In this document: positions 4,459-23,165 of the stretch, piece by piece
Layout: each line of letters opens with the position of its first letter
How positions within the stretch are numbered: the first letter of the stretch is position 1
Notes under the pieces: generated by a model
What the model saw: only the letters and a program-made list of their open reading frames with translations
Database searches by the model: none
What the model was told of the DNA's origin: nothing
Made by a program: the position numbers and the translations under genes
Origin: Minisyncoccota bacterium
Lineage (GTDB): Bacteria; Patescibacteriota; Minisyncoccia; Phycocordibacterales; XYD1-FULL-46-19
Assembly: GCA_041649495.1 (NCBI GenBank)
Contig: JBAZMZ010000001.1
Location: forward strand, 623-64,622
Direction: 5' to 3'
Length of the DNA stretch: 64,000 bases

Positions 4459-4476
4459 GTATAATAGTAAATAGCT

Positions 4477-6180
4477 ATGGCCGAGACGATAATTAATTAT
4501 TTTGCTCAGACTGATTTTCGCGGGAAGAGAATTCCGTTTGGGATTAAGGGTGATGATCGAGCGCGCCATGTTTATGTGATTGGTAAGACGGGCATGGGCA
4601 AGTCTTGTTTGTTGGAGAATATGGCGGTGCAGGATATCCAAAATGGTGAGGGGATGGCCTTCATCGATCCACACGGCAAATCGGCTGAATTATTACTTGA
4701 TTTTGTGCCACCCGAACGACTCAAAGATGTTATATATTTCGCACCCTTTGATCTTGAGCACCCAATTTCTTTTAATGTGATGGAAGATGTGGGTCCGGAC
4801 CAGCGTCACTTGGTGGCGAATGGTTTAATGTCCTCGTTTAAGAAAATTTGGCCAGATGTTTGGTCGAGCCGAATGGAGTACATTTTAAATAATTGTTTAC
4901 TGGCACTTTTAGAATATCCTGACTCGACTCTTTTGGGGGTGAATCGTTTGTTGTCAGACAAAGACTATCGCAAACAAGTGGTTGATAATATTACCGACCC
5001 GTCGGTGCGATCGTTTTGGCTTGATGAATTTGCCAAGTATAACGAACGCTATATGCAGGAGGCGGGCGACGCGATTAAGAACAAGATCGGGCAATTTACG
5101 GCTAACCCCTTGATTCGTAATATTATCGGTCAAACCAAGTCCTCATTTGATTTGCGCGAGGCGATGGACAGCAAAAAGATTTTGATTGTTAACCTGTCAA
5201 AAGGGCAATTGGGTGAGCAAAACGCCAATCTCTTGGGCGGTATTTTAATTACCAAGATTTATTTGGCGGCGATGTCGCGAGCGGGCGTGGGGGCGGGGAT
5301 TTCGAAATTGCCCTACTTTTATGTTTTTATCGATGAGTTTCAATCTTTTGTCAACGATTCGTTTGCTGATATTTTGTCCGAGGCGCGCAAATATAAATTA
5401 AGTTTGACGATTGCTCATCAATATATTGAACAGATGCCAGAGGAGGTGCGGAACGCGGTTTTTGGCAACATTGGCACGACCATTGCTTTTCGGGTCGGCC
5501 CATTTGATGCCGAAGTGTTGGAGAAAATCTTTTTACCGACCTTTACGCAAGAAGACCTCGTCAATTTGGGTTTTGCTCAAATTTATTTAACGCTGATGAT
5601 TAACGGGGTTGGCTCGCCACCTTTTTCGGCCGTGACCTTGCCCCCAATTGTGTCGACGACCGCGTCGATTAAAGATCAAATCATCAAGTCTTCGCAGAAA
5701 AATTATGCTAGTCCGCGGGAATTGGTGGAGACAAAAATTACAACTTGGTTTGAACCGGTGGTTAAATTTACCGCTAAATCAGAGCCGAAAAAATCAGAAA
5801 ACTCAAAAACACCTCAAACTTTTCAATCGAGTTTGCCTCTCGCAAAGACGACTAAGGCGGTTTCAAAACCCGTCGCGACTCCGGTTACGAAATCAGCGCC
5901 CAAACCATTAGCTAAGCCGGCGCCTCCCAAAGCTTTTTCGTTGAGCATCTTGAAAAATAAAGCGCAAAGTTCTAACCCCTCGACTCCGCTCGGGGCAAGT
6001 AAAAATAAAGACGAGCTCAAAGCCTTTTTGGGCGAAATTATGGCCAACAAAAAACCCAAAACTGTTTCAGCTTCCTCAACTTCTAATCCGTCAGTCAGAT
6101 CAAATTCTCAACCTGACCCCAAAAAAGAAATTCCCCAAGATGTCCTCGAAGATCTATTAGCCGTTAAGCCGGGAGAGTAA
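4477..6180 (+). CDS. HerA/DUF87-like (T4SS coupling-protein-like) P-loop NTPase with a Pro/Lys/Ser-rich low-complexity C-terminal tail
   Basis: Walker A HVYVIGKTGMGKS, FIDPHGK and Walker B FYVFIDEFQ. The last ~170 aa are low complexity. Confidence 0.6.
   Translation: MAETIINYFAQTDFRGKRIPFGIKGDDRARHVYVIGKTGMGKSCLLENMAVQDIQNGEGMAFIDPHGKSAELLLDFVPPERLKDVIYFAPFDLEHPISFNVMEDVGPDQRHLVANGLMSSFKKIWPDVWSSRMEYILNNCLLALLEYPDSTLLGVNRLLSDKDYRKQVVDNITDPSVRSFWLDEFAKYNERYMQEAGDAIKNKIGQFTANPLIRNIIGQTKSSFDLREAMDSKKILIVNLSKGQLGEQNANLLGGILITKIYLAAMSRAGVGAGISKLPYFYVFIDEFQSFVNDSFADILSEARKYKLSLTIAHQYIEQMPEEVRNAVFGNIGTTIAFRVGPFDAEVLEKIFLPTFTQEDLVNLGFAQIYLTLMINGVGSPPFSAVTLPPIVSTTASIKDQIIKSSQKNYASPRELVETKITTWFEPVVKFTAKSEPKKSENSKTPQTFQSSLPLAKTTKAVSKPVATPVTKSAPKPLAKPAPPKAFSLSILKNKAQSSNPSTPLGASKNKDELKAFLGEIMANKKPKTVSASSTSNPSVRSNSQPDPKKEIPQDVLEDLLAVKPGE
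5974..5999. repeat. repeat family B, copy in the HerA-like ATPase tail (NPSTPLGA)
   Basis: aacccctcgactccgctcggggcaag. Confidence 0.7.
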
Positions 6181-6960
6181 TTTAGCTAACTCTAGGCGGA
6201 CAAAGCGACGAATTAAAGCGTAAGAAAAACCCGGATAAAACTCTCGGTATTTTTTGACTAGGTTTAAATTTTCCATCATTAATCTAAGTCGATCGGTGTT
6301 TGAAATATTCGAACCGTGCTGACGATAATTGAGATCGTAAGAGGGAAGATTATGGAGTTTGCCTTTTTGACCCAATTTGAGCCATAAATCATAGTCCTCA
6401 ATGCCGTTTAGGTTCGGATGATAACCATTTACAGACCGGGCAATATCTCGTCGATAAAGGATGCTCGAGTGGGCGAAAGGATTTTTTGCTAAAATTTGTA
6501 CCCTAATTTGCCCGTCTTGTTCTGGGTTGAGATAGCGTTTTCGTTCTTGATTATTCTGGTCGATAACAATTACTCCTGTACCAACGGCGACATAATTGGG
6601 GTGATCGTCGAGAAAATCAATTTGTTTTTTTAGTTTATCTGGGCTGTTCCAAATATCATCACTATCCAAAATAGCGACATATTTGCCTCGAGACTCTTGA
6701 AGGGCACGATTTCGCGAGGCACAAATGCCTAAATTTCTTTCATTTTTGAAATAACGAATTCTTGCATCAGTAAGATATTTTTTAACAATTTCTTCTGTTT
6801 GGTCGGTTGAGCCATCGTCGACAATAATTATTTCCCAATGGGTAAAGCTTTGGGCTAAGACGCTTTCAATTGTTTGAGCAATAAAATTGGCTCGATTATA
6901 AGTAATAATATTAACACTGACTTTTATTTGGGGCTCTAATTTCGTGGTAATTTGGTCCAT
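6157..6960 (-). CDS. family 2 glycosyltransferase
   Basis: VSVNIITYNRANF...IIIVDDGSTD...DSDD motifs. Confidence 0.8.
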   Translation of the reverse strand: MDQITTKLEPQIKVSVNIITYNRANFIAQTIESVLAQSFTHWEIIIVDDGSTDQTEEIVKKYLTDARIRYFKNERNLGICASRNRALQESRGKYVAILDSDDIWNSPDKLKKQIDFLDDHPNYVAVGTGVIVIDQNNQERKRYLNPEQDGQIRVQILAKNPFAHSSILYRRDIARSVNGYHPNLNGIEDYDLWLKLGQKGKLHNLPSYDLNYRQHGSNISNTDRLRLMMENLNLVKKYREFYPGFSYALIRRFVRLELAKLLSRLNG

Positions 6961-7826
6961 GTTGGGGGGATAATATCATCTATTTTGATACTACCATTAT
7001 TAAACCAGATGTCTGGCGCAATAACAATCTTGTTGGGATTTTCGTTGAGCCAAGCGCCCCACCAAGAGAAACTTGAATTAGCGATAATATTATGTTTACA
7101 CTTACTCATCAAAACTAGTTCCTGGTAATCAGTCAGTTCTTTCTCTTGTTTATTTTCCGAAACATAAGTTACTAGATGGCTATTAAATTTCATATTAGCC
7201 TTAACCCAATCAACATCATCACTAAATACAAAGAAAGCTGGATTCTCAATCTTTGTTTCAATTAACTCAATGGCTTTTTTGTAATAATTTGCCGAACAGA
7301 TTCCTAACCCTTTTAAATTAGTTGTCAAAAGGTAGTCGGTCCTTCGGACGGCAAGCGAGACAGAGTTGGTAGTTGTTATCTGATTCAATAGTTCAGGATT
7401 TGTTTGGTCAAGAGGGGTCTTGAGAGTAAAATCTTTTTGGATGACTTCTTTGATATCAGAAAAGTACTTGAAACTTTGCCAATAGCCGTCTAAATAGATA
7501 TCTTTACCCTGGGCCATCTCTTTTTTTATTCTGCTAATTACCCGAGGTTCCCAGCCGGTGTGGTGAACTCGTAGGATTTTAAATTTGAAACCGCGCCAGG
7601 CTTTGGATGCCAAACCAAGAGAGTATTTATTTTTTTTAATTTCTTGGTGGTTAGCAAAGTTCTCTTCGATAGCAAAAACTTTTAATCCGTAAGCGCGAAA
7701 ATGCTCTCGATCGTAGCCAGTTCGATCTAATTTTAGCCCCGTCTTTTGGGTGACAGCTAATTCTCGTCCCAAAGCATATTGAAACATTTGATTGCCGAGC
7801 CCGCCTTTTAAATTGACGGTAATCAT
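6936..7826 (-). CDS. GT11 alpha-1,2-fucosyltransferase-like glycosyltransferase
   Basis: N-terminal GGLGNQMFQYA signature of the GT11 fucosyltransferases. Confidence 0.75.
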   Translation of the reverse strand: MITVNLKGGLGNQMFQYALGRELAVTQKTGLKLDRTGYDREHFRAYGLKVFAIEENFANHQEIKKNKYSLGLASKAWRGFKFKILRVHHTGWEPRVISRIKKEMAQGKDIYLDGYWQSFKYFSDIKEVIQKDFTLKTPLDQTNPELLNQITTTNSVSLAVRRTDYLLTTNLKGLGICSANYYKKAIELIETKIENPAFFVFSDDVDWVKANMKFNSHLVTYVSENKQEKELTDYQELVLMSKCKHNIIANSSFSWWGAWLNENPNKIVIAPDIWFNNGSIKIDDIIPPTWTKLPRN

Positions 7827-8584
7827 TTTTCCGTCGATATTTTAAAGCTGATAATAATCTCCTCATTTTTATTAAGTACTTTTTTCCAATTTGGTTTTAA
7901 ATCTTGGTGAAAAAAATAATCTCCATTACCCATTATCCTCTGTATTTTAAAGCCGGTCTGCTTGGTAATTAATTCAATTTGCCAATAGGGCAGGGGATTA
8001 ATATGATATTCAAAACAGTCGGGGGTGAACCAGGGAAAATATCCTGTTAACCAAAATTTTAAACGACTTCTCGTTGATAAAATATTTGGCGTACTAATAA
8101 TAAAAAGCCCGTCTGGTTTGAGCATTCTTCTTGCTTGTCGGAAAAATTCCCAGGGATTTTCTAGGTGCTCGATGATTTCTTGGCCGACAATTATATCGAA
8201 GGATTGCTCGAGAAAAGGGTAAGGAAAATGATTCAAATCCCAGATTGAATTTTTTTTGTCAACTTTGGTTGACGCAATATCTACATTAGAGACGTTATAA
8301 CCCAAAAGTTCAAAAATCGTCGAGACCTGGCCAGTTCCGCCCCCTAGATTAAGAAGTTTCTTTTTTTGGTTGTTTATGCTCAACTCTCTCGTGATTGTCT
8401 CTATGACACCGGGTGAGGCATGACAATAAAGGGAATCAACTAAATATCTGCGCCAACCATAGAAGAAACTTCTCTCTTCGTGTCGAAATTGTTTTTTTAA
8501 ATTGACAACTAGATCATCGGTCGGTGCTTCAATGTTTAAAAGGCCTGTTCTCTTAAGCCAATTTTTAATAAGATTATTTTTCAT
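7823..8584 (-). CDS. class I SAM-dependent methyltransferase
   Basis: LLNLGGGTGQ glycine-rich SAM motif followed by an acidic residue and a DIIV motif. Confidence 0.6.
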   Translation of the reverse strand: MKNNLIKNWLKRTGLLNIEAPTDDLVVNLKKQFRHEERSFFYGWRRYLVDSLYCHASPGVIETITRELSINNQKKKLLNLGGGTGQVSTIFELLGYNVSNVDIASTKVDKKNSIWDLNHFPYPFLEQSFDIIVGQEIIEHLENPWEFFRQARRMLKPDGLFIISTPNILSTRSRLKFWLTGYFPWFTPDCFEYHINPLPYWQIELITKQTGFKIQRIMGNGDYFFHQDLKPNWKKVLNKNEEIIISFKISTEK

Positions 8585-9317
8585 GTTGTTTTGTTGCTAT
8601 TATAACATAGTCAAGAGTTAGCCAACGTTTATTGGTTAGCCAGTCAAGGAATAGTGAAATAATTTGAATTGGCCCCAAAATAAAAATAGACAGGGTGATT
8701 TTTAGGATGGTGTTTCTAAAAGCTAAGCTTTCAAAGACAAAGGCGGAAAATATCTGTCCTAAAACACCAAAGATTCCAGTTGTTTGAGTCAAGCTGGAGA
8801 TTTCGAGACCGTTTTGAGTTAGTAATTGTTCTAACCCATATCGAGTAAAACGGTAAAAATCATAAGGAATCTCATGTTCGTTCCAAACAAAGGGTGTCGT
8901 GATAAAAACTTGCCCATCTGTTTTTAGGGTCCGAGCCATTTCGTTTAGTAATTTTGCTGGTTCGGGGGTGTGTTCTAGAACTTGAGTACACAGAATTACT
9001 TCAAATTGATTGTCTGGGAAGGGGATATGCACGCCGTCAAAAAATTTATCAACCGTTTTCTCTTGATCGGTATGTCCACCCCCTTCAATATCTATTCCTT
9101 GGTAAGAAGAAGATAGAAAAAGGTTCTTATACGGCTTATTGCCACAGCCGACATCTAATATTTTAGAATTATGGGGGACTACTCTAGAGAATTTTCTGAT
9201 CTGGCAATAAAGGGCTCTTCGGCTAATAAAATACGGATTTAAAAAAATTGAGTACCAACTGGGTCGAAAAAAGATGGCCTCAATAATCTGCTTCTTGTTT
9301 TTTCTAAGATCGATCAT
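8574..9317 (-). CDS. class I SAM-dependent methyltransferase with a C-terminal TM segment
   Basis: ILDVGCGNKPY motif I and FEVILCTQVLEH motif. Confidence 0.7.
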   Translation of the reverse strand: MIDLRKNKKQIIEAIFFRPSWYSIFLNPYFISRRALYCQIRKFSRVVPHNSKILDVGCGNKPYKNLFLSSSYQGIDIEGGGHTDQEKTVDKFFDGVHIPFPDNQFEVILCTQVLEHTPEPAKLLNEMARTLKTDGQVFITTPFVWNEHEIPYDFYRFTRYGLEQLLTQNGLEISSLTQTTGIFGVLGQIFSAFVFESLAFRNTILKITLSIFILGPIQIISLFLDWLTNKRWLTLDYVIIATKQHEK

Positions 9318-10231
9318 AAGTTTTTGGTTACTATATCTAAGAAGGGGTTATTATATAATAGGTATTTTAATTTCTCCACACGGGTAAACTGACTGAAACC
9401 GTGGTTAAAATTTGGATCAATTTGAGCCACGCAAGTTATTGATTTTCTTATTGCCTCGATATAAGGTCGGTAAAAGGTTTTTCTTTTGGTGGCTGGAATA
9501 AAGTAGCCCTTAGCCTCAACAAATTTATCTTGATTGAGAAGTTTGAAAGCATGAAAATGATAAAAAATTACCTTTGGGGGTATCGAAGTTCGTATATTCC
9601 AGGGAGCTAGGCCAGCTCCAGGGTGTTGGATGACCGATAGGTTGGGGAATCTCTCGGGCCAATCGTTTAAATATAGCTGATCGCCGTAAAGACCATTTTC
9701 TAATCGATCGAAACACCAATCAATTACTTTATTAGCCCACCATTTAACAGCTTCTTGGCCGACCTTGTCATTTTTGAAATAAACAAAACCGACATTAAAA
9801 CGACCAACCTTTTGCGTAAATTCTTGTTGTTTTTTGGGAAAACGGTGCTCAATAATCCCAATTGAATTATTGCCAATTTCGACAAAGATTGGCTCTGGAT
9901 TATCAAAGAAATAGAGATCAGCGTCGAGGTAAGTAATACTTTCAACTTCTTCTTTTTTCAGCATAAAATGGCATAAATTAGCTGTGCAAGTCCACGCATA
10001 TTCGGCTGGGTTGCGAGAGGGTCTGACTCTTAATAGTCGTTCGTCTTCAAACTCAGACATCTTTATCAGCTTTATTTTTGGGAGATCCATCTTGGAAAGC
10101 AAGTCATATGTTTCTTCCTCTAAACAGAGAATCCAGAGAGTAAAATTAGGACAATGCTGCTTAAGTGAAAAATACAAAGCTAGGCCTCGATAAAGATAAT
10201 TCTTGTCAAATAGAGTGCAAAAATTACACAT
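9314..10231 (-). CDS. putative nucleotide-diphospho-sugar transferase (GT8-like, DxD)
   Basis: YLDADLYFF DxD-like motif in a glycan-cluster context. Confidence 0.4.
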   Translation of the reverse strand: MCNFCTLFDKNYLYRGLALYFSLKQHCPNFTLWILCLEEETYDLLSKMDLPKIKLIKMSEFEDERLLRVRPSRNPAEYAWTCTANLCHFMLKKEEVESITYLDADLYFFDNPEPIFVEIGNNSIGIIEHRFPKKQQEFTQKVGRFNVGFVYFKNDKVGQEAVKWWANKVIDWCFDRLENGLYGDQLYLNDWPERFPNLSVIQHPGAGLAPWNIRTSIPPKVIFYHFHAFKLLNQDKFVEAKGYFIPATKRKTFYRPYIEAIRKSITCVAQIDPNFNHGFSQFTRVEKLKYLLYNNPFLDIVTKNL

Positions 10232-12435: not shown

Positions 12436-12436
12436 T

Positions 12437-13366: not shown

Positions 13367-13527
13367 AACTTAATTTTAATTGTAACTTAAAATCTCGCAT
13401 GTTTCAAGCTGAGTTTTGCTCTAAAAATGCTTGATTTTTTGATAGATAAACAAAATTATGCAGACTCTTTATTTGGAAGATTAAAGACATGACAATTAGA
13501 TAATGAATCAATAGTTTGCAATTATCG

Positions 13528-13576
13528 CAAAAAAATATAAGCAAAGAGCCTGGCAATGATTTCCACTGCCAGGCTC
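13528..13576 (-). terminator. rho-independent terminator downstream of the radical SAM gene
   Basis: Perfect 10-bp stem (gagcctggca/tgccaggctc) followed by a U-run on the minus strand. Confidence 0.6.
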
Positions 13577-15069: not shown

Positions 15070-15134
15070 GACGTTTCTCCTTCTGCTTTCAAGCAGGGTT
15101 GTGTGAATGACAAAGTTTCCTTTTAAAAAATACT

Positions 15135-16127: not shown

Positions 16128-16131
16128 CTAG

Positions 16132-17022: not shown

Positions 17023-17028
17023 AGTGCT

Positions 17029-17790
17029 TTAAGGCTGAGTCGCCTCTTTTGCTTGGTATAAATAATCAACACCATTGATAATTGTAATTAGTTGGTAGTT
17101 GTAATCTAGAAAAGACCCTATTTTTTTTTGTCTTTTCTCGCTATGTATCTCAATAAGTAAAAAATTTGGCTTATACTTCCTAAAGCTTAAGCCTCTCAGA
17201 GCTTCTAGCTCGTAACCCTCGATATCTAGAGTAAGTAGATCTATCGTTCTCATTTTATGACTTAAAAAATACTCATCTAAAAGTGAGTCTAATGTCGAGG
17301 TTGGAACGGTGATTTCTCTCGCGGTTATTTTCTGAGCTTTTTCACCAGCACGAACCCAATCTAAATAGTCAAACGAATCATCTTTGACTATGGTCATGGC
17401 GTTACAGTCAATAAGCGTTAAAACTGGTTTTAGAAAATCACAACTGACCAAAGCTTTTTTAACGATTATCGATCGGGGACGATTTATCTGGCAATATCGG
17501 CTGGCTCGGGTCGGTTCTATTATTATCCCGGTCCAACCCAGGAAACGTTCAAGGTAGTAAGTTGGATCTTGAAAGTAGCCATCATTTCCTCCTCCCACAA
17601 CAAAAAATCCTCCTTTTTTGTTGATATATTTTAACAATTTGTCGTGACCCAAATAAGGTTTAGAAAATTTTTCATCTCCCCACCATTCATATATTTTCCT
17701 TTTAAGTATTGTTAGTTGCGCAAATAGGTAGGGTTTTATTTTTTTTAGTATATTTATCATTGCTTTATGAGTTTTTGCCACTATCGACAC
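17029..17790 (-). CDS. FkbM-family methyltransferase
   Basis: IDLLTLDIEGYELEALRG, typical of Methyltransf_21/FkbM. Confidence 0.65.
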   Translation of the reverse strand: MSIVAKTHKAMINILKKIKPYLFAQLTILKRKIYEWWGDEKFSKPYLGHDKLLKYINKKGGFFVVGGGNDGYFQDPTYYLERFLGWTGIIIEPTRASRYCQINRPRSIIVKKALVSCDFLKPVLTLIDCNAMTIVKDDSFDYLDWVRAGEKAQKITAREITVPTSTLDSLLDEYFLSHKMRTIDLLTLDIEGYELEALRGLSFRKYKPNFLLIEIHSEKRQKKIGSFLDYNYQLITIINGVDYLYQAKEATQP

Positions 17791-18655
17791 TGCTGTTTGT
17801 TCTCCAGAAGCAAATGGGAATTTTATTGTCGGTTCCTACGGAGTATAACAGATTCATCCTGATTTGAAAGTCACGGTCTGAAAAGCGAACAAGACGATCT
17901 TTTTTATTTCTGTAAAGTCCAACCGAAAGAGCTTTTTTCCGCGAAAAGGTTGATCCAGAATGAGTCATGTTCAAACTGCAAAAATCCTCAAAACCTAAGG
18001 CGTCGCTCGGGGTTGTTATCTGTAGGGAGATATCTTTTATCGAAAAATGATCTTCCACCCTTTTTTTACTTGTCTCGAGAAAATTGTCGTTGTCAAAATT
18101 TATATTACCAAACCCTATTAAGGCCAAATCTTTTCGATCCCTGAGCATCCGCAAAGATATTTCTATTGCATCATGCATTAAATAGTCGTCATCGTTGAGG
18201 ATCATCACCACGTCGGTTGTTGCTAACCCGGTCGCCCTGTTTATGCTTAACGCTTGGCCCAAGTTTTTTTCGTTTTTGCGAACAATAAACTCTATTTTCT
18301 CTTCGGGATTATTTTTTTGATAATCTGATACCAAGCCTCGAATAACCTCTGAGGTCTGGTCGCGCGAACAATCATCAATCAAAATTACCTGGTCAGGGAG
18401 ACGAGTCTGGTTAATAATTGATCTAAAAGTCAAGGATAAGAACTTGCTGTGGTTATAACAAGGGACAATAATGGCAATTGTCCTAACTCTGGTTGGTTCA
18501 TTAACTTTCTTTCCCTCGAACTCTTTTTTGAATCTCATCATCTTATTAAGAGGTACTTGACGCTGGCGAATTAGCTCCAAAAACCATTTAGGTAATAATC
18601 CCCGAATAGTGATTTTGGCATTGTATTTAAACATCTCTCGTTGGCTTCTGTTCAT
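17765..18655 (-). CDS. family 2 glycosyltransferase
   Basis: IAIIVPCYNHSKFL...VILIDDCSRD...DDD. Confidence 0.75.
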   Translation of the reverse strand: MNRSQREMFKYNAKITIRGLLPKWFLELIRQRQVPLNKMMRFKKEFEGKKVNEPTRVRTIAIIVPCYNHSKFLSLTFRSIINQTRLPDQVILIDDCSRDQTSEVIRGLVSDYQKNNPEEKIEFIVRKNEKNLGQALSINRATGLATTDVVMILNDDDYLMHDAIEISLRMLRDRKDLALIGFGNINFDNDNFLETSKKRVEDHFSIKDISLQITTPSDALGFEDFCSLNMTHSGSTFSRKKALSVGLYRNKKDRLVRFSDRDFQIRMNLLYSVGTDNKIPICFWRTNSSVDSGKNS

Positions 18656-20199
18656 GGTTTGGAAAAATTTTTGATTCGGAGAATTGCTAAATTAGAAAAC
18701 TTTTTAAAATCTTGCCAATCTTCTTTTTCCACAAAACCCAAGACTTTATAGAGAAGCAGGTAAACAATAACCGCGCCGGGACCCAAGATGGCCAGGGTCG
18801 GGAAGTTGACGATTAAGGGTGAAATTAAAAATTTAGCAACAAAAAAGAAAATAGCCGCAGTCGTGCCAATTCGCCAGATAATTTGGCGATAATATTTGCC
18901 TCGGCCAATTAGGCCCAAATATTTTTTCTCAGCGAAATAAATCATATAAAAGATAGGCAACATTGATAAAAGATAGGCCCAGGCGGCACCGGTGACGCCA
19001 TATTTGGGTAGCAAAAGGAAGAGGAAGAGGGCATTTAGCCCGGCCATAATAGTGTTGAGAATAGAGGAAAATTTTATTTTGCCTAAACCGAAAAAGAAAG
19101 CATTGATGGGCGAAAGCAGGGCAATCATGAAATTTGTCAAAGTTAAGATAACCAAAATGTTGGTGGATTTATTGGCCACGTCGGCATTTATCCAGTAACG
19201 CATGATGGGGTAAGCTAAAAAAATTACAGATAAGGAAATGGCCGAGGCAATAGTTGTGACCAAACGAACAGAACGGATGTAAAAACGCCGAAGTTGTTCT
19301 TGGTTACCCGTACCATTGATGCTGGCCGAAATGGGGAAAATAATCCCAGAGAGGTTGTCGGTTACCCCCGGGATGCGGGCGGCGACATTGCCGGGCAAAC
19401 TATAGTAAGTCAGCTGCGTTGGGCCGATAAAGATTGGGATAATTAGTCGATCTAGGTAGGCAAGGGAAGTACTAGCCGTATTGTTTATTACTGTGGCAAT
19501 TCCAAAACGATAACAATGTCTAATTTCTTCCTTGTCCCAGCCTAATTGGTAATGAGCCAGGGGTAGGATTTGGAGAGCGTATCGACGTCGGACTAAAACA
19601 AAGATGGCAGTTAGGATTAACTGGGAAATAAAAATGGCGATTAATTTATAGCCGAGCAAAACTAAAATCAGAATTGTTAATGGGGAGAGCGTAAGATAAA
19701 CGATGTTAACTTTGGAAGAAATATCATAACGCTGGAGCGCTTCGGGGATAATGTTGTATGAATTATTAATTGAACTGATAAAAAAACTCAGACCAGCAAT
19801 AATAAAGAGGATTAGATAAAACTGTTGGCCAGCGAGACGGTCAGCGAAAAGCCAACGACCCCCCAATGAAAGTAAGATTGTGGTGGTTAGGCCAGAAAGA
19901 CCAATGAGGAGGAAGAGGCTATTGGCTGAACGGAGCAACTTTTTGATTTTTTCAGTTTCCAACTGGGCTGAGTATTCGGCGAGGAATTTCATTACGGCGT
20001 AAGAGATCCCCAAGTCGAGCAAGCCGAGCAAACTAGTGATTGCTCCGATAAAGATGTAGATACCATAATCTTTGGCCCCTAATCTAAGGACAACAATTGG
20101 GGTAATAAGAATCGAAAAAACCATTGGCCAGATAAAAGCCGTAAAACGATAAGAAATATTCTTTAGGGTCTTGTAGGTTAAAGAAGAGGTTTCCATCAT
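18652..20199 (-). CDS. oligosaccharide flippase (Wzx/MOP family), polytopic membrane protein
   Basis: Roughly 12-14 predicted TM helices, 515 aa, lying inside the glycan cluster. Confidence 0.75.
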   Translation of the reverse strand: MMETSSLTYKTLKNISYRFTAFIWPMVFSILITPIVVLRLGAKDYGIYIFIGAITSLLGLLDLGISYAVMKFLAEYSAQLETEKIKKLLRSANSLFLLIGLSGLTTTILLSLGGRWLFADRLAGQQFYLILFIIAGLSFFISSINNSYNIIPEALQRYDISSKVNIVYLTLSPLTILILVLLGYKLIAIFISQLILTAIFVLVRRRYALQILPLAHYQLGWDKEEIRHCYRFGIATVINNTASTSLAYLDRLIIPIFIGPTQLTYYSLPGNVAARIPGVTDNLSGIIFPISASINGTGNQEQLRRFYIRSVRLVTTIASAISLSVIFLAYPIMRYWINADVANKSTNILVILTLTNFMIALLSPINAFFFGLGKIKFSSILNTIMAGLNALFLFLLLPKYGVTGAAWAYLLSMLPIFYMIYFAEKKYLGLIGRGKYYRQIIWRIGTTAAIFFFVAKFLISPLIVNFPTLAILGPGAVIVYLLLYKVLGFVEKEDWQDFKKFSNLAILRIKNFSKP

Positions 20200-20975
20200 G
20201 TAAAGATGACACCGATCCCCCCCCAGTCTCGGGGTGGAGTGGCAATCAATTCCTTAAAGTTTTTCTCCAGCCTAATCTCATTCCAGAAGTGGTCAACCTG
20301 GCATTCGGGACTACTCTTGTGTTGAGCAATGTCATGAAAAGCGATAATTCCACCGATTCTGACCATGGGAGAATAAAATTCGTAATCCTTTTTTACTCCA
20401 GCGTAGGTGTGGTCACCGTCAATAAAGAGGAAATCTATTTTTTCTTCTAAAATTTCTCGCAATCTCTCTTGAGTTCCCTGATGATGGGAATTAGCCCGTA
20501 ACAAATGCAATTTTTGTTTTGGCGTAGCAAATTTTTTGTAAACTTTTGTTCTCCATGCGGGGTAGCCTCCCCCATCTTCCCATGGTAGGTCAAGACTGAC
20601 GATTGTAGCATTTTCTGTTGCAAGACGGGTAAACAGAAAAAGTGTTCCTCCTCTGGCGGTGCCAATTTCTAAAACAGTCTGAGGTTTTAGATCTTCAACA
20701 ATTTTTGTTAGCTCAGTAATTTCCCAACGAACTTGTTTGGGTCTAATTAAGTGTCCCCATTTGTCAAACAAAAAGCTCACAAGCGGTAGGGCCGATGGCT
20801 TCTTTTGGACTTCGCGGGAGATTTTCCATAAAGCGAGGGGGCGCAAAAGAGGCTCGAGTTTTGTCAATAAGGGTTGGACGGAACGGACGAAAAAAAAGAA
20901 TAATTTGCGACAAAATTCCCTACCTCCTTTTTGAGATAAAGTTTCCCACGCTTTTTGATTCAGTGACTTAGCCAT
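20196..20975 (-). CDS. class I SAM-dependent O-methyltransferase (CmcI/Methyltransf_24-like)
   Basis: VLEIGTARGGT...FLFIDGDHTYAGV. Confidence 0.6.
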   Translation of the reverse strand: MAKSLNQKAWETLSQKGGREFCRKLFFFFVRSVQPLLTKLEPLLRPLALWKISREVQKKPSALPLVSFLFDKWGHLIRPKQVRWEITELTKIVEDLKPQTVLEIGTARGGTLFLFTRLATENATIVSLDLPWEDGGGYPAWRTKVYKKFATPKQKLHLLRANSHHQGTQERLREILEEKIDFLFIDGDHTYAGVKKDYEFYSPMVRIGGIIAFHDIAQHKSSPECQVDHFWNEIRLEKNFKELIATPPRDWGGIGVIFT

Positions 20976-21077: not shown

Positions 21078-23165
21078 ATGACAATTAATAATATCAACAA
21101 ATGGCTCCGATACCTTATTTATACTGGCCTCTTCCTTGTCCCCTTTATTCCGCTTTTTGTCTCAACTTCGATGTTTTTTCCTTTCATTACTGGCAAAAAT
21201 TTCGCTTTTCGGATTATTGTCGAAATCATTTTTGCCCTGTGGGCGATTTTGGTCTTAACCGACAAAACGGCTAGACCCAAATATTCTTGGCTTTTGTGGG
21301 CAATCGTGGCTCTTATTGTCGTTGATGGTTTGGCCACCTTGTTCGGTCTCTATCCTTATCGCAGTTTTTGGTCCAATTATGAGCGTATGGACGGTTATAC
21401 TAATATTTTACATCTGGGGGCTTATTTTCTGGTTTTAATCTCTGTTTTGAAAGATAAAGCCAAATGGTTTTGGCTAGCCAACACCTCTCTTTTGGCCAAT
21501 GTTTATATTGTCGGTTACAGCTTTCTCCAATTGGTTGGGAAAGTGCAAATTCATCAAAGTGGCACTCGGCTTGATGCCTCGCTTGGTAATTCAGCTTATT
21601 TAGCTGTTTATGTGCTCTTTCATATCTTCATCGCTGGCTATCTATTGCTAGCACAATGGAGCAAAAATAAAATATTGTCAACTTTTTACATTATAATGAT
21701 GGTTGCTGACACTATTATCTTGTATTACACGGCGACTCGTGGAGCGATTTTGGGTTTAATCGGTGGGGTCTTGGTGGTTGGTTTGTTGTTGGCTATTTTG
21801 AGTCGGGGCCAGACGCGAAAAATTTCGGGCCTTATTATCGCGCTGGTTATTTTGCTTGTGGCTGGTTTTTGGTCGGTGAAAGGTACCGATTTTGTCAAAA
21901 ATAATCAGGTTCTGACGCGTTTTGCCACCTTGTCTTTGTCGGAGGGGACGGCCCAATCTCGTTTTTTGATTTGGCAGATGAGCTGGCAAGGTTTTCAAGA
22001 ACATCCGGTTTTGGGTTGGGGTCCAGAAAATTACACGATGGTTTTTAGTAAATATTATAATCCTAAAATGTGGGGCAACGAGCCTTGGTTTGATCGGTCA
22101 CACAATATTTTCTTCGATTGGCTGATTAACGCTGGTGCGCTCGGACTTCTTGCTTATCTGTCAATTTATGGGACCCTTCTTTATTATCTTTGGTTTGGTC
22201 GGCGAGGAAAATCAAATTCGGTTATTGATACAATTAGTGGTAAAAGTTTATTAACCGGTCTTTTGGCCGCTTACTTTTTCCACAATATTTTTGTTTTTGA
22301 CAACTTAGTTAGTTACATTTTATTTTTCTCACTGGTCGCTTTTATTCATTTCGAAATGACGGAGGAAAAAGGGGACGAAATTTTGAAAGTTAAGAATAAT
22401 TATCAGGCCAATAAAAAAACGCTTAGCAATTATAACGCCAGTTTAATTGCTCCCGTTGCCTCGGTTGTTATCATTGTGGCCATGGGCTCGATTATTTACT
22501 TTGCCAATCTTAAACCAATTGAGGCGTCAACTTCTTTGATTAAAGCTTTATCGTCTAATCAGGCGGGGGTAACCGGTAATTTGGAGTATTACAAAAAAGT
22601 TTTTACGCTGGACACTTTTGGTTCGGGCGAAGCGCGGGAGCAATTGGTGACAAAAACCCTTAACGTCTTAAATGGTGCTAAAGTCTCTAATGATTTGAAG
22701 AATCAATTTGTTCAATTAATCGATGGGCAAATAAAAGTTCAGTTAGCGCAATTTGACCAAGACGCGCGGGCCCTGTCATTTTTTGGTTCTTATTTTACGG
22801 CGACGGGTCGAGTTGATGAAGGTTTAGCTTTATTACAAAAAGCGCATGAGCTATCACCCAAGAAACAACAAATCACTTTTGCTCTTATCTCAGCTTATGT
22901 GCAAAAGCAGGACGCGACGAATGCGATTAAATTAGCGCAAGAAGCTTATGAGCTTGATCCGACTTATCCCGAAGCGCGAAAAATTTATGCTTTAATTCTC
23001 TTAATGACCAGTCAAAACAAATTGGCTCAAGAAATTTTAGCGCCGATCAAAAATTCGGCCAACTATTATAATGACGATCGCTTCATTAATCTTTACCAAC
23101 AAGCGGGCGATCAAAAATCGCTTCAAGAGATAAATTCTTTGCGCGCGGCTGCAAACAAAAAATAA
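21078..23165 (+). CDS. O-antigen ligase/polymerase-like polytopic membrane protein with a C-terminal TPR domain
   Basis: Multi-TM N-terminal half with a Wzy_C-like loop; C-terminal repeats such as LSFFGSYFTATGRVDEGLALLQKAHELSP. Confidence 0.7.
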   Translation: MTINNINKWLRYLIYTGLFLVPFIPLFVSTSMFFPFITGKNFAFRIIVEIIFALWAILVLTDKTARPKYSWLLWAIVALIVVDGLATLFGLYPYRSFWSNYERMDGYTNILHLGAYFLVLISVLKDKAKWFWLANTSLLANVYIVGYSFLQLVGKVQIHQSGTRLDASLGNSAYLAVYVLFHIFIAGYLLLAQWSKNKILSTFYIIMMVADTIILYYTATRGAILGLIGGVLVVGLLLAILSRGQTRKISGLIIALVILLVAGFWSVKGTDFVKNNQVLTRFATLSLSEGTAQSRFLIWQMSWQGFQEHPVLGWGPENYTMVFSKYYNPKMWGNEPWFDRSHNIFFDWLINAGALGLLAYLSIYGTLLYYLWFGRRGKSNSVIDTISGKSLLTGLLAAYFFHNIFVFDNLVSYILFFSLVAFIHFEMTEEKGDEILKVKNNYQANKKTLSNYNASLIAPVASVVIIVAMGSIIYFANLKPIEASTSLIKALSSNQAGVTGNLEYYKKVFTLDTFGSGEAREQLVTKTLNVLNGAKVSNDLKNQFVQLIDGQIKVQLAQFDQDARALSFFGSYFTATGRVDEGLALLQKAHELSPKKQQITFALISAYVQKQDATNAIKLAQEAYELDPTYPEARKIYALILLMTSQNKLAQEILAPIKNSANYYNDDRFINLYQQAGDQKSLQEINSLRAAANKK

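What the first reader, a model, noticed from the sequence alone, without database searches (positions are those of the whole stretch)
6157..23165. 17 kb glycan-modification cluster unusually rich in methyltransferases, with a B12-radical SAM enzyme and a fucosyltransferase
Fifteen co-directional minus-strand genes, followed by a plus-strand O-antigen-ligase/TPR membrane protein, form the cluster. The 15 minus-strand genes are:
- four GT2 glycosyltransferases;
- one GT11 alpha-1,2-fucosyltransferase-like enzyme (GGLGNQMFQYA);
- six SAM methyltransferases of different families (TIGR04325-like, FkbM, CmcI-like and three generic class I);
- a class B (B12-binding) radical SAM enzyme;
- a GT8-like transferase;
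- a ParB/Srx-like protein;
- a Wzx flippase.

Six or seven methylation enzymes for one glycan is an unusually large number. It predicts a heavily O-methylated and possibly C-methylated fucosylated surface glycan. In a reduced-genome bacterium this is a large investment, plausibly in host or partner interaction.
Basis: partly seen in the sequence, partly recalled or inferred. Interest (0 to 1): 0.55.

Follow-up and report, generated by a model that had tools for sequence, protein, structure and literature searches.

The report
Methyltransferase-rich surface-glycan locus in Paceibacterota
This is a real, conserved 17-kb gene cluster in a tiny-genome (Paceibacterota) bacterium that most likely builds, heavily methylates and exports a cell-surface sugar chain; it is an ordinary kind of locus that carries two uncharacterised tailoring modules worth testing.

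Summary
There are 16, not 15, minus-strand genes. The missed one (16132-17022) is a GT114 glycosyltransferase related to chlorovirus A075L.

Inventory:
- seven glycosyltransferases
- six SAM methyltransferases
- one B12-domain radical SAM enzyme
- one ParB/Srx-fold protein
- a Wzx flippase
- a divergently transcribed Wzy_C/TPR membrane protein

The source is a Candidatus Paceibacterota MAG. Three other Paceibacterota carry the locus next to the same TrwB-like/DUF4015 neighbours, with a variable middle. It is therefore a conserved Wzx-dependent glycan locus, not a chance concatenation, although terminator and promoter matches split it into two or three transcription units.

New points:
1. Window 8574-13366 is a mobile six-gene module also found in Methylomonas and two other loci. 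Natural fusion proteins link the ParB/Srx protein to methyltransferases.
2. The radical SAM enzyme belongs to a large uncharacterised family (at least 421 species genomes), mostly found in glycan loci. Its closest solved fold is the sugar diol-dehydratase AprD4, so C-methylation is unproven.
3. No priming transferase or GDP-fucose genes lie in the window.

Verdict: a new variant of a known kind, of moderate interest.

The parts
6157..6960 (-). GT2 glycosyltransferase (GT2a), last gene of the cluster. Its 3' end overlaps the convergent TrwB-like gene by 24 bp.
   Evidence: PF00535 at 138 bits. DSDD motif. 70-71% identical orthologues occupy the same end position in L001 and L003.
6936..7826 (-). 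GT11-family glycosyltransferase (alpha-1,2-fucosyltransferase family).
   Evidence: PF01531 at 110.9 bits against a cut-off of 23.9. GGLGNQMFQYA and AVRRTDY motifs. 57-61% identical orthologues in L001, L003 and L086.
7823..8584 (-). Class I SAM methyltransferase (MT23a).
   Evidence: Methyltransf_23/11. GGGTG SAM motif. Orthologues in L001, L003 and L086.
8574..9317 (-). Class I SAM methyltransferase with two C-terminal hydrophobic segments (MT23b). Part of the mobile six-gene module.
   Evidence: Methyltransf_23/11. Hydropathy analysis. 33-59% identical orthologues in L086, L085, L089 and L090.
9314..10231 (-). GT8-like GT-A glycosyltransferase. Part of the module.
   Evidence: PF01501 at 27.8 bits against a cut-off of 24.3. 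DAD motif. Orthologues in L086, L085, L089 and L090.
10224..11033 (-). TIGR04325 (LIC12133-type) methyltransferase. Its start overlaps the preceding gene by 4 bp.
   Evidence: NCBIfam TIGR04325 at 207.7 bits against a cut-off of 80. It is fused to the ParB/Srx-like domain in P0172.
11030..11770 (-). ParB/Srx-fold protein with an invariant DGNHR motif. Predicted NTP-binding partner of the methyltransferases.
   Evidence: No Pfam hit. Family alignment A2. AlphaFold pLDDT 92.7. Foldseek top hits are almost all from the ParB/Srx superfamily. Natural fusions to methyltransferases exist.
11755..12435 (-). Class I SAM methyltransferase (Methyltransf_25, UbiE-like). First methyltransferase of the module.
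   Evidence: PF13649 at 63 bits. Always lies immediately upstream of the ParB/Srx gene in L085, L086, L089 and L090.
12437..13366 (-). GT-A glycosyltransferase of the HlpA-like/'GT2' family (EDD motif). First gene of the downstream transcription unit.
   Evidence: Only a weak GNT-I hit. More than 7,400 homologues, named GT2/GT-A/HlpA-like by NCBI. Orthologues in L086, L003, L001, L085 and L089.
13379..13407 (-). Promoter-like site (TTGAAA-17-TACAAT) upstream of 12437-13366.
   Evidence: 10 of 12 consensus match. TATAAT-like boxes sit at the same position in L003 and L086. This is a consensus match only.
13546..13576 (-). Intrinsic-terminator-like hairpin (14-bp stem, 8 G-C pairs, T-rich tail), 60 nt after the radical SAM stop codon.
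   Evidence: Best-ranked terminator match in the scan. Equivalent GC-rich hairpins with a T run follow the radical SAM gene in L001, L003 and L086.
13636..15069 (-). B12-binding-domain radical SAM enzyme. It has a TTG start with an AAGGAG Shine-Dalgarno sequence and is a GC-rich outlier (0.55).
   Evidence: PF02310 at 53.5 bits and PF04055 at 77 bits. CxxxCxxC at C203/C207/C210 is invariant. GC values. Family size and contexts. Fold.
15135..16127 (-). GT2 glycosyltransferase (GT2b).
   Evidence: PF00535 at 120.7 bits. 50-75% identical orthologues lie directly upstream of the radical SAM gene in L001, L003 and L086.
16132..17022 (-). GT114-family (A075L-like, GT-B, inverting) glycosyltransferase.
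   Evidence: phmmer E = 3e-22 to PBCV-1 A075L (8Q8I/8AVQ). The catalytic Asp and both phosphate-binding Arg residues align (PMC11571054).
17029..17790 (-). FkbM-family methyltransferase.
   Evidence: PF05050 at 65 bits against a cut-off of 22.7. Orthologues in L001 and L086.
17765..18655 (-). GT2 glycosyltransferase (GT2c). It overlaps the end of wzx by 4 bp and is fused to Wzx in L003.
   Evidence: PF00535 at 85 bits. The L003 ORF 4475-6919 covers both Wzx and GT2c.
18652..20199 (-). Wzx-type flippase (MOP superfamily).
   Evidence: Polysacc_synt_3, Polysacc_synt and MatE hits. At least 9 hydrophobic segments.
20196..20975 (-). CmcI/rhamnosyl-O-methyltransferase-like methyltransferase. First gene of the upstream unit.
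   Evidence: PF13578 at 62.2 bits and PF04989 at 32.9 bits. 61% identical orthologue in L003.
21078..23165 (+). Wzy_C (O-antigen ligase/polymerase/O-oligosaccharyltransferase family) membrane protein with a C-terminal TPR domain. Transcribed divergently from the cluster.
   Evidence: PF04932 at 80.2 bits and TPR hits. At least 8 hydrophobic segments, then a soluble tail of about 210 aa. The same architecture flanks the locus in L001 and L003.

Best explanation
This is a Wzx-dependent surface-glycan assembly and tailoring locus of a Candidatus Paceibacterota (CPR) bacterium. The proposed mechanism has five steps.

1. A priming transferase encoded elsewhere starts the chain on a polyprenyl-phosphate carrier.
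2. Seven soluble glycosyltransferases extend it on the cytoplasmic face. They are three GT2, one HlpA-like GT-A, one GT8-like, one GT11 and one GT114.
3. Six SAM methyltransferases decorate it.
   - Three of them travel with a ParB/Srx-fold protein and two of the glycosyltransferases as a mobile six-gene module (window 8574-13366).
   - I infer that this module adds and multiply methylates a non-reducing-end residue. The residue is possibly also phosphorylated through the NTP-binding ParB/Srx protein.
4. A B12-domain radical SAM enzyme makes one radical modification of a sugar, either C-methylation or AprD4-like deoxygenation.
5. Wzx flips the finished unit. The divergently transcribed Wzy_C/TPR protein then polymerises it or transfers it to an extracytoplasmic acceptor, which could be a protein or a wall polymer.

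Shown here: the gene content and family memberships, the conservation of the locus, the mobility of the module, the fusion links, and the association of the radical SAM family with glycan loci.

Inferred: every substrate, the order of steps, the chemistry of the radical SAM enzyme and of the ParB/Srx protein, and the acceptor.
For: Family assignments:
- Pfam and NCBIfam place most of the genes.
- The GT114 gene matches A075L at E = 3e-22, with the catalytic Asp and two Arg residues conserved (PMC11571054).
- The HlpA-like GT-A family is large.
- The catalytic signatures are intact: DxD/EDD in the GT-A enzymes, GxGxG in the methyltransferases and CxxxCxxC in the radical SAM enzyme.

Organisation:
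- Gene junctions overlap or lie within 7 bp, except around the radical SAM gene.
- All glycosyltransferases and methyltransferases except MT23b lack hydrophobic segments. Wzx and the Wzy_C/TPR protein are polytopic.

Conservation:
- The locus lies next to the same TrwB-like/DUF4015 neighbours in three other Paceibacterota, and a Wzy_C/TPR gene closes it in the two whose far end was recovered (L001, L003). End genes and the radical SAM gene are conserved and the middle varies.
- L086 is collinear for 14 genes at 48-67% identity.

The six-gene module:
- It recurs in Methylomonas sp. EFPC1 (L085), L086, L089 and L090 at 32-67% identity.
- In L090 it lies directly downstream of an ABC-transporter Wzt with a Wzt_C domain.
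- Rosetta-stone fusions exist: P0172 joins the ParB/Srx domain to a TIGR04325 methyltransferase (E = 3e-62), and P0249 joins it to a class I methyltransferase.
- The fold of the 11030-11770 protein matches Srx, SerK, SbnI and ParB.

The radical SAM family:
- It occurs in at least 421 species genomes.
- At least 29 of 42 long non-Paceibacterota loci have a GT2, GT4, GT9 or GT1-like gene within 10 kb. GT2, GT61 and Bac_transf turn up among the remainder.

Precedents:
- A TIGR04325 methyltransferase sits in the Leptospira O-antigen locus (PMC8055020).
- The Tannerella forsythia O-glycan cluster has Wzx, five glycosyltransferases and three methyltransferases (PMC6120980).
Against: - No priming phosphoglycosyltransferase, no Wzz, no LCP ligase and no nucleotide-sugar genes (for example gmd/fcl for GDP-fucose) lie in the 64-kb window or in the 10 kb beyond its far end. 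The pathway is therefore incomplete as seen.
- The radical SAM gene has its own promoter-like site and a conserved terminator, and its GC content is 0.55 against 0.36-0.39 for its neighbours. It could be functionally independent.
- The ParB/Srx assignment rests on about 76 aligned residues at Foldseek E of about 1e-3.
- No substrate has been tested for any enzyme.
- The organism has no known lipid A. The name 'O-antigen ligase' therefore says nothing about the acceptor.
Confidence: 0.75

Rival explanations
1. The radical SAM gene is a passenger. It is a separately transcribed, horizontally acquired gene lodged inside the glycan locus, it acts on something other than the glycan, and the cluster makes an O-methylated glycan without it.
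For: - GC is 0.55 (GC3 0.61) against 0.36-0.39 in all neighbours.
- It is flanked by the only two sizeable intergenic gaps in the run, 65 and 269 bp.
- It has its own promoter-like site and Shine-Dalgarno sequence, and a strong terminator hairpin.
- It has no fixed neighbour family across phyla.
- About a quarter of the long loci showed no glycosyltransferase in my clustering.
Against: - It occupies the same slot (after GT2b, before the HlpA-like GT or its replacement) in four Paceibacterota loci whose copies are only 58-63% identical.
- The GC offset is also seen in L001 and L003, so it is old and not one recent insertion.
- In other phyla its GC content tracks the host (r = 0.92) and it mostly sits among GT2, GT4, UXS-like, AsnB, DegT and Wzy_C/TPR genes.
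Confidence: 0.15
2. The radical SAM enzyme is not a methylase. It is an AprD4-like radical dehydratase or isomerase that deoxygenates or rearranges a sugar, so the glycan is O-methylated but not C-methylated.
For: - The best structural match of the AlphaFold model is AprD4, the diol-dehydratase that acts on the aminoglycoside sugar of paromamine (TM 0.69/0.72, E = 5e-22).
- AprD4 is also the second-best PDB sequence hit and an NCBIfam hit.
- Its length (477 aa) matches AprD4 (about 455 aa), not the longer methylases TsrM, TokK, CysS and OxsB.
Against: - TsrM scores equally (E = 6.8e-22) and the methylase QCMT/MgmA is the best sequence hit.
- The top NCBIfam hit is the PhpK P-methyltransferase family, though far below its cut-off.
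- The Pfam B12-binding domain passes its threshold.
- No AprD3-like reductase partner was seen next to the gene.
Confidence: 0.3
3. The product is a protein O-glycan rather than a wall-linked or capsular polymer. The Wzy_C/TPR protein acts as a PglL/PilO-type O-oligosaccharyltransferase and puts a single methyl-capped oligosaccharide on S-layer or pilin proteins.
For: - No Wzz and no second Wzy-like gene are present.
- A set of seven glycosyltransferases fits one oligosaccharide of defined length.
- Multiple methylation of a terminal residue would block further extension (inference).
- CPR bacteria lack lipid A, so the Wzy_C protein is not a WaaL (own knowledge).
- The Tannerella forsythia O-glycan cluster has the same parts list (PMC6120980).
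Against: - Sequence alone cannot separate Wzy_C ligases, polymerases and O-oligosaccharyltransferases. The PDB sequence search hit only the TPR part.
- No acceptor protein gene is evident next to the locus.
- The same Wzy_C plus TPR architecture occurs next to LPS-type genes in diderm Elusimicrobiota.
Confidence: 0.35
4. The genes are a chance concatenation of unrelated operons, and the methyltransferases serve other pathways such as quinone, lipid or natural-product methylation.
For: - The generic class I methyltransferases give weak sub-threshold hits to UbiG, UbiE, BioC and similar families.
- There are signs of two or three transcription units.
Against: - All those NCBIfam hits are far below their cut-offs.
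- The methyltransferases interleave with glycosyltransferases, with overlapping stop and start codons.
- The same methyltransferase/glycosyltransferase order is conserved in L086, and the module recurs in four other glycan loci.
- The TIGR04325, FkbM and CmcI families are known from glycan loci (own knowledge of NoeI and Rv2959c).
Confidence: 0.03

Closest known systems
Wzx/Wzy-dependent O-antigen or capsule gene clusters (for example E. coli O-antigen loci; Leptospira rfb locus)
   Same: - Wzx flippase, a run of GT2/GT-A glycosyltransferases and a Wzy_C-family membrane protein.
- GC content below the genome average.
- A fixed chromosomal position with conserved ends and a variable middle.
- A TIGR04325 methyltransferase also occurs in the Leptospira rfb locus.
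   Different: - No priming transferase, Wzz or nucleotide-sugar genes lie in or near the locus.
- The host is a CPR bacterium that should have no lipid A-core acceptor.
- It has six methyltransferases plus a radical SAM enzyme, whereas only a few E. coli clusters have even one methyltransferase (PMC7685785).
Tannerella forsythia / Bacteroidota general protein O-glycosylation cluster
   Same: Wzx, five glycosyltransferases and three methyltransferases in one polycistronic locus. The product is a fucose-containing, methylated oligosaccharide placed on S-layer proteins (PMC6120980).
   Different: - The Tannerella cluster has no radical SAM enzyme and no ParB/Srx protein, and it carries nonulosonic-acid genes.
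- Its methyltransferase count is half that seen here.
- The acceptor is unknown here.
Chlorovirus PBCV-1 capsid N-glycan machinery (A075L, GT114)
   Same: ORF 16132-17022 is a GT114 member with the catalytic Asp and both Arg residues conserved. Chlorovirus glycans are fucose-centred and O-methylated (PMC11571054; own knowledge).
   Different: Only this one enzyme is shared. Its donor and acceptor here are unknown, and the context is a bacterial lipid-carrier pathway.
WbdD kinase-methyltransferase chain terminator of E. coli O9a, with the Wzt_C cap reader
   Same: [quoted passage not shown] In L090 the ParB/Srx-methyltransferase module lies directly after a Wzt with a Wzt_C domain.
   Different: - The NTP-binding candidate here has a ParB/Srx fold, not a protein-kinase fold.
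- No WbdD homology was found.
- The window uses Wzx, not an ABC transporter.
- Phosphotransfer is untested.
Class B (cobalamin-dependent) radical SAM enzymes and AprD4
   Same: An N-terminal B12-binding Rossmann domain plus a radical SAM barrel with CxxxCxxC. The fold matches AprD4, TsrM, QCMT/MgmA, TokK, CysS and OxsB.
   Different: - It is below the cut-off of every curated NCBIfam model (best: PhpK at 117 bits against 600).
- It has at most 19% identity to any solved structure.
- Its setting in cell-surface glycan loci across many phyla matches no family I know to be characterised.
Mycobacterial phenolic glycolipid and glycopeptidolipid tailoring (Rv2954c-Rv2956 and Rv2959c methyltransferases with fucosyl- and rhamnosyltransferases) - from own knowledge
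   Same: Several class I methyltransferases plus a CmcI-family rhamnosyl O-methyltransferase permethylate a terminal fucose or rhamnose that dedicated glycosyltransferases add.
   Different: The mycobacterial product is a lipid-linked glycolipid assembled without a Wzx/Wzy_C pair. No sequence orthology was tested here beyond the CmcI family hit.

Membership tests
Wzx/Wzy-dependent glycan assembly locus | Wzx (MOP-family) flippase gene in the cluster | tested here: met
   PF13440, PF01943 and PF01554 hits on 18652-20199. At least 9 hydrophobic segments.
Wzx/Wzy-dependent glycan assembly locus | Several glycosyltransferase genes co-oriented with wzx | tested here: met
   Seven glycosyltransferases.
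Wzx/Wzy-dependent glycan assembly locus | Initiating phosphoglycosyltransferase (Bac_transf or Glycos_transf_4 family) | tested here: not met
   None among the cluster ORFs or the larger ORFs (120 aa or more) of the 64-kb window that were scanned. None in the 10 kb beyond the window end. It may be encoded elsewhere in the genome.
Wzx/Wzy-dependent glycan assembly locus | Wzy polymerase plus Wzz chain-length regulator | tested here: inconclusive
   One Wzy_C-domain protein is present (80.2 bits). The domain does not separate polymerase, ligase and O-oligosaccharyltransferase. No Wzz was found.
Class B cobalamin-dependent radical SAM methyltransferase | CxxxCxxC cluster motif in a Radical_SAM domain | tested here: met
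   C203, C207 and C210 are invariant in 21 sequences. PF04055 at 77 bits.
Class B cobalamin-dependent radical SAM methyltransferase | N-terminal B12-binding domain | tested here: met
   PF02310 at 53.5 bits against a cut-off of 32.1. The model has a Rossmann-type N-terminal domain and matches TsrM, TokK and OxsB.
Class B cobalamin-dependent radical SAM methyltransferase | Membership of a characterised methylase subfamily (PhpK, HpnR, TsrM, GenK-like and others) | tested here: not met
   All NCBIfam hits are far below their cut-offs. The best is PhpK at 117 bits against 600.
Class B cobalamin-dependent radical SAM methyltransferase | Cobalamin bound and methyl group transferred | not testable with these tools
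   The closest fold, AprD4, is a dehydratase that, from my own knowledge, does not use cobalamin. The domain alone therefore does not prove methylation.
GT11 alpha-1,2-fucosyltransferase family | Full-length match to the GT11 profile | tested here: met
   PF01531 at 110.9 bits, covering residues 1-291.
GT11 alpha-1,2-fucosyltransferase family | HxRRxD(Y) donor-binding motif (from own knowledge) | tested here: inconclusive
   The sequence reads AVRRTDY. The RRxDY part is kept and the His is replaced by Ala.
GT11 alpha-1,2-fucosyltransferase family | Use of GDP-L-fucose, and presence of its biosynthetic genes | tested here: not met
   No gmd/fcl-type genes in the window. Donor specificity itself cannot be tested here.
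GT114 (A075L-like) | Sequence similarity to A075L, with the catalytic base Asp73 and the phosphate-binding Arg158 and Arg208 | tested here: met
   E = 3e-22 over residues 89-291. D96 aligns with Asp73 (in HNGD versus GHSD). The Arg of GERQ aligns with Arg158 and the Arg of SHR aligns with Arg208 (residue roles from PMC11571054).
TIGR04325 methyltransferase family | Score above the curated NCBIfam cut-off | tested here: met
   207.7 bits against a cut-off of 80, covering model positions 1-233 of 234.
ParB/Srx superfamily | ParB/Srx fold | tested here: met
   The AlphaFold model has pLDDT 92.7. Of the 50 Foldseek PDB hits listed, nearly all are Srx, SbnI, SerK, ParB, Noc, KorB or PadC; two are hypothetical proteins (Atu1540, 1vk1). 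The match covers only about 76 columns, E is 1.4e-3 or weaker, and TM normalised to the target is about 0.5.
ParB/Srx superfamily | Match to a Pfam ParB/Srx profile | tested here: not met
   No Pfam family at E of 0.01 or better. No PDB sequence hit at E of 1 or better.
ParB/Srx superfamily | Nucleotide (ATP or CTP) binding or phosphotransfer | not testable with these tools
   The invariant DGNHR motif resembles the Srx GCHR motif (the motif comparison is from own knowledge).
WbdD-type kinase-methyltransferase terminator | Protein-kinase-like domain fused to a methyltransferase, in an ABC-transporter O-antigen pathway | tested here: not met
   No kinase domain was found in any cluster ORF, and the window uses Wzx. 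WbdD is an analogy only. It is supported by the ParB/Srx-methyltransferase fusions and by the Wzt_C neighbour in L090.

The most novel reading that the evidence does not exclude
The cluster may carry two tailoring systems for bacterial surface glycans that have never been characterised.

(a) A ParB/Srx-fold NTP-using protein works as an obligate partner of TIGR04325 and class I methyltransferases. They sit adjacent in five loci and are fused in some genomes. Together they would install a phospho-methyl or otherwise activated, multiply methylated cap on the non-reducing end. This would be a WbdD-like chain-end chemistry built from an unrelated fold, able to move between Wzx and ABC-transporter pathways.

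(b) A B12-domain radical SAM family, present in hundreds of species from CPR bacteria to Nitrospira and Elusimicrobiota, performs radical C-methylation or deoxygenation on envelope glycans. In a Paceibacterota cell that would mean dependence on scavenged cobamide for surface decoration.
Probability: 0.25. Interest if true: 0.65.

Novelty: new variant of a known kind. Interest (0 to 1): 0.42.

Why it matters
CPR/Patescibacteria live attached to other cells, and almost nothing is known about their surface chemistry. A conserved locus that may take 2-3% of a genome of roughly 0.5 Mb (my estimate, from the 553-kb contig of a relative) points to a hydrophobic, heavily methylated glycan as a core trait.

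The analysis gives two concrete, testable handles.
- The six-gene methylation module is shared with a cultivable methanotroph, Methylomonas sp. EFPC1. Its product can therefore be determined without culturing a CPR organism.
- The radical SAM family is widespread and associated with glycan loci. If it acts on sugars, it would extend radical SAM tailoring from antibiotics to cell-envelope polysaccharides.

The locus is also a caution for annotation. The label 'O-antigen ligase' in an organism without LPS says nothing about the acceptor.

Tried and rejected
- An exact look-up of the radical SAM protein found nothing. The NCBI copy is a partial ORF at a contig end.
- I tested whether the second GC-rich ORF (28816-30243) is a paralogue of the radical SAM gene. 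It is not. It is a PASTA-domain protein with no similarity.
- PDB sequence searches found nothing for 11030-11770, 12437-13366 or 10224-11033. For the Wzy_C/TPR protein they hit only designed TPR proteins.
- A literature search for B12-binding radical SAM enzymes in polysaccharide clusters returned nothing. Searches for CPR glycan loci returned no directly relevant paper.
- I rejected the idea that the radical SAM gene is one recent horizontal insertion. L001 and L003 show the same GC offset (L086 was not measured), yet the four Paceibacterota copies are only 58-63% identical and form a loose deep clade with Geobacteraceae copies.
- I rejected a fixed partner gene for the radical SAM enzyme. 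Its neighbours vary.
- I looked for a priming transferase and nucleotide-sugar genes in the rest of the window and beyond its end and found none.

Full report
**1. Observation**

ORF listing shows a compact run of 16 minus-strand ORFs from 6157 to 20975. A divergently transcribed plus-strand ORF follows at 21078-23165. Junctions inside the run overlap or are at most 6 bp apart. The two exceptions are the gaps of 65 bp and 269 bp on either side of 13636-15069.

- GT2 at 6157-6960, 15135-16127 and 17765-18655
- GT11 at 6936-7826, with the quoted GGLGNQMFQYA motif
- class I methyltransferases at 7823-8584, 8574-9317 and 11755-12435
- a TIGR04325 methyltransferase at 10224-11033 (207.7 bits against a cut-off of 80)
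- FkbM at 17029-17790
- a CmcI/Methyltransf_24 methyltransferase at 20196-20975
- a B12-binding plus radical SAM protein at 13636-15069
- a marginal GT8 at 9314-10231
- Wzx at 18652-20199
- Wzy_C plus TPR at 21078-23165

Three ORFs had no family hit above threshold, and I resolved them separately.
It matches the chlorovirus PBCV-1 beta-xylosyltransferase A075L, founder of CAZy family GT114, at E = 3e-22. The catalytic Asp73 and the phosphate-binding Arg158 and Arg208 all align with identical residues (residue roles from PMC11571054).
- ORF 12437-13366 belongs to a family of more than 7,400 proteins that NCBI labels GT2/GT-A/HlpA-like. It has an EDD motif.
  - It belongs to a family of 66 cluster representatives at E of 1e-30 or better, and 1,538 at E of 1e-3 or better. 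The family has an invariant DGNHR motif.
  - An AlphaFold model (pLDDT 92.7) gives Foldseek top hits that are almost all from the ParB/Srx superfamily: sulfiredoxin, SbnI, free serine kinase, ParB, Noc and KorB. The match covers only about 76 residues at E of about 1e-3.

The inventory is therefore seven glycosyltransferases, six SAM methyltransferases, one B12-domain radical SAM enzyme, one ParB/Srx-fold protein, Wzx, and Wzy_C/TPR. Catalytic signatures are intact throughout: DxD/EDD, GxGxG and CxxxCxxC.

**2. Source and surroundings**

A partial protein 100% identical to the radical SAM enzyme, and a 100% identical copy of ORF 11030-11770, are annotated as Candidatus Paceibacterota bacterium (GCA_041652655.1). 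The window lies near one end of a 131,858-bp metagenomic contig.

Flanking genes are housekeeping genes:
- upstream: MurD- and MurC-like ligases, a DUF4015 protein and a TrwB/TraG-like ATPase
- downstream: SecA, MurB, GatB, pentose-phosphate enzymes, ribosomal proteins and others

I found no priming phosphoglycosyltransferase, Wzz, LCP ligase or nucleotide-sugar pathway. This holds for the larger ORFs of the window that I scanned and for the 10 kb past its far end.

**3. The locus is conserved, with a variable middle**

Homologues of the radical SAM enzyme and of ORF 11030-11770 led to three more Paceibacterota loci: L001, L003 (on a 553-kb contig) and L086 (on a 347-kb contig).
- All three have the DUF4015 and TrwB-like genes next to the locus. 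L086 has two extra sugar genes between them and the cluster.
- The conserved genes are GT2a/GT11/MT23a at one end, GT2b followed by the radical SAM gene in the centre, and the GT114-like gene.
- Wzx and a flanking Wzy_C/TPR gene were seen at the other end in L001 and L003. The L086 stretch I fetched stops short of that end.
- L086 is collinear with the window for 14 genes at 48-67% identity.
- L001 and L003 replace the segment equivalent to 8574-12435 with other tailoring genes: FkbM, Methyltransf_11, polysaccharide deacetylase, pyruvyl transferase or GT4.
- Methyltransferase counts are 6 (L001), 4 (L003) and at least 5 (L086), each plus the radical SAM enzyme.
- The cluster's GC content (0.35-0.43) is mostly below that of the flanking genes (0.42-0.48), as is usual for surface-polysaccharide loci.

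This is the behaviour of an O-antigen-type locus: fixed position, conserved ends and an exchangeable centre.

**4. Transcription units**

The strongest terminator-like hairpin in the region lies 60 nt after the radical SAM stop codon (13576-13546; 14-bp stem, T-rich tail). A TTGAAA-17-TACAAT promoter-like site follows at 13407-13379. A TTGACA-17-TATTTT site precedes the radical SAM gene, which starts at TTG behind an AAGGAG Shine-Dalgarno sequence.

Equivalent GC-rich hairpins followed by T runs sit after the radical SAM gene in L001, L003 and L086.

The locus therefore probably has two or three transcription units:
- 20975-15135
- the radical SAM gene
- 13366-6157

These are pattern matches, not transcript data.

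**5. A mobile six-gene module**

The block consists of the HlpA-like GT, MT25, the ParB/Srx protein, the TIGR04325 methyltransferase, MT23b and the GT8-like GT (window 8574-13366). It recurs at 32-67% identity in four other loci:
- L086
- the cultured methanotroph Methylomonas sp. EFPC1 (L085, CP070494.1)
- L089
- L090

The core order MT25, ParB/Srx, TIGR04325 is the same in all of them. Its settings differ:
- In Methylomonas it sits inside a Wzx/GT11/FkbM/DUF268 cluster.
- In L090 it lies directly downstream of an ABC-transporter Wzt with a Wzt_C carbohydrate-binding domain.

Two natural fusion proteins tie the ParB/Srx protein to methyltransferases.
- P0172 joins the ParB/Srx domain to a TIGR04325 methyltransferase that is 36% identical to the window's (E = 3e-62).
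- P0249 joins it to a class I methyltransferase.

In the window the ParB/Srx and TIGR04325 genes overlap by 4 bp.

Srx, SerK/SbnI and ParB all bind ATP or CTP (own knowledge). E. coli WbdD is a kinase-methyltransferase that caps the O9a chain with methyl phosphate (PMC7685785), and I recall that the Wzt_C domain reads that cap. From this I infer that the module adds a non-reducing-end residue and multiply methylates it, possibly with phosphorylation. This is an inference. No kinase-fold domain is present and no chemistry was tested.

**6. The radical SAM enzyme**

It has the B12-binding domain (53.5 bits against a cut-off of 32.1) and an invariant CxxxCxxC motif. It falls far below the cut-off of every curated NCBIfam model; the best is PhpK at 117 bits against 600.

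Its family is large and strikingly uniform.
- More than 4,400 database clusters match at E of 1e-10 or better, and the 120 best are all 55-62% identical to it (apart from its own partial copy).
- There are relatives in at least 421 GTDB species genomes. They include Elusimicrobiota, Nitrospirota, Geobacteraceae, Planctomycetota, Acidobacteriota, Saccharibacteria and others.

No single neighbour is constant.
- At least 29 of 42 long non-Paceibacterota loci have a GT2, GT4, GT9 or GT1-like gene within 10 kb.
- UXS-like epimerases, AsnB, DegT and Wzy_C/TPR genes are also common.
- The remaining loci include GT2, GT61, Bac_transf and flagellin genes.

An AlphaFold model (pLDDT 86) matches AprD4 best. 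AprD4 is the radical diol-dehydratase that deoxygenates the sugar of paromamine (TM 0.69/0.72). The methylase TsrM is level with it, followed by MgmA/QCMT, TokK, CysS and OxsB. A sugar substrate is therefore plausible, but C-methylation is only one of at least two chemistries.

**7. An unexplained compositional feature**

The radical SAM gene has GC 0.55 (GC3 0.61) inside a cluster at 0.36-0.39. The same offset (+0.11 to +0.13) is seen in L001 and L003. Across other phyla the gene's GC content tracks its host (r = 0.92, mean offset 0.006).

The four Paceibacterota copies are only 58-63% identical. They form a loose, deep clade with Geobacteraceae copies in a neighbour-joining tree. One recent transfer does not explain this. 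Repeated replacement from GC-richer donors, or a maintained codon bias, remains possible.

**8. Mechanism proposed**

1. A primer enzyme encoded elsewhere starts the chain on a polyprenyl phosphate.
2. Seven soluble glycosyltransferases extend it on the cytoplasmic face.
3. Methyltransferases and the radical SAM enzyme tailor it. Only MT23b has hydrophobic segments.
4. Wzx flips it.
5. The Wzy_C/TPR protein transfers or polymerises it outside the membrane. This protein has at least 8 hydrophobic segments followed by a soluble TPR tail of about 210 residues.

A CPR cell should lack lipid A, so the acceptor is likely a protein (S-layer or pilin, PglL-like route) or a wall polymer. Sequence cannot decide between these.

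**9. Comparison and novelty**

The kind of system is well known. The closest known systems are:
- Wzx-dependent O-antigen and capsule loci
- the Tannerella forsythia protein O-glycosylation cluster, with Wzx, five glycosyltransferases and three methyltransferases (PMC6120980)
- the Leptospira rfb locus, for the TIGR04325 enzyme
- from my own knowledge, mycobacterial PGL/GPL permethylation

What differs here:
- the methyltransferase density, six of 17 genes plus the radical SAM enzyme
- the uncharacterised B12-domain radical SAM family
- the ParB/Srx-methyltransferase module
- the GT114 enzyme
- the CPR host

I found no paper describing such loci in CPR bacteria and none on this radical SAM family in polysaccharide clusters.

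I rate it a new variant of a known kind, with moderate interest (0.42). A specialist would not be surprised by a glycan locus. The two uncharacterised modules are concrete and testable, and one of them can be tested in a cultivable organism.

Noticed in passing
window 13636-15069 (also L001 10001-11413 and L003 10001-11485): The radical SAM gene is a persistent GC-rich outlier (0.51-0.55 against 0.34-0.43 in its neighbours) in the three Paceibacterota loci measured, although the copies are only about 60% identical. In other phyla its GC content tracks the host (r = 0.92). Unexplained.
   Followed up: partly
window 28816-30243: A PASTA-domain ORF with GC 0.58 (GC3 0.65) is a second strong compositional outlier in a window that averages 0.44. 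It is unrelated to the radical SAM gene.
   Followed up: partly
window 3256-6180: A DUF4015 (putative glycoside hydrolase) gene and a TrwB/TraG-like P-loop ATPase with a long low-complexity Pro/Ser/Lys-rich C-terminus lie next to the glycan locus. In the window the ATPase gene's 3' end overlaps the convergent GT2a gene by 24 bp. Both are conserved neighbours in all four Paceibacterota loci. Their role is unknown.
   Followed up: no
window 17765-20199 and L003 4475-6919: Wzx and the adjacent GT2 are two ORFs with a 4-bp overlap in the window. In L003 they are one 814-aa ORF, either a natural Wzx-GT2 fusion or an assembly frameshift.
   Followed up: no
L087 and L001 (ENA sample ERZ27247363): The window's contig (k141_953300) and the L001 contig (k141_949953) come from the same metagenome. 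The two related Paceibacterota populations have TrwB-like proteins 80% identical but carry different versions of the middle of the glycan locus.
   Followed up: partly
L090 3829-8335 (GCA_037445115.1, JBBILC010000014.1): The MT25/ParB-Srx/TIGR04325/MT23 block lies immediately downstream of an ABC-transporter Wzt with a Wzt_C carbohydrate-binding domain. From my recollection of the E. coli O9a locus, that is where wbdD would sit.
   Followed up: partly
window 62282-63208: One 308-aa ORF combines a NusB domain with a NUDIX hydrolase domain, an unusual fusion.
   Followed up: no
window 54508-54906 (and L088 4671-5181): A MazF/PemK-type toxin gene, and nearby a HicB/HicA pair, lie among housekeeping genes.
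   Followed up: no
window 37334-39507: Transketolase is encoded as two separate ORFs (N-terminal and pyrimidine-binding/C-terminal halves) with a gap of about 240 bp between them.
   Followed up: no
L017, L018, L011 and other loci: Among the radical SAM loci that lacked a clustered glycosyltransferase, flagellin, GT61 and TPR genes turned up near the radical SAM gene. This hints at a link to flagellin glycosylation in some lineages.
   Followed up: no
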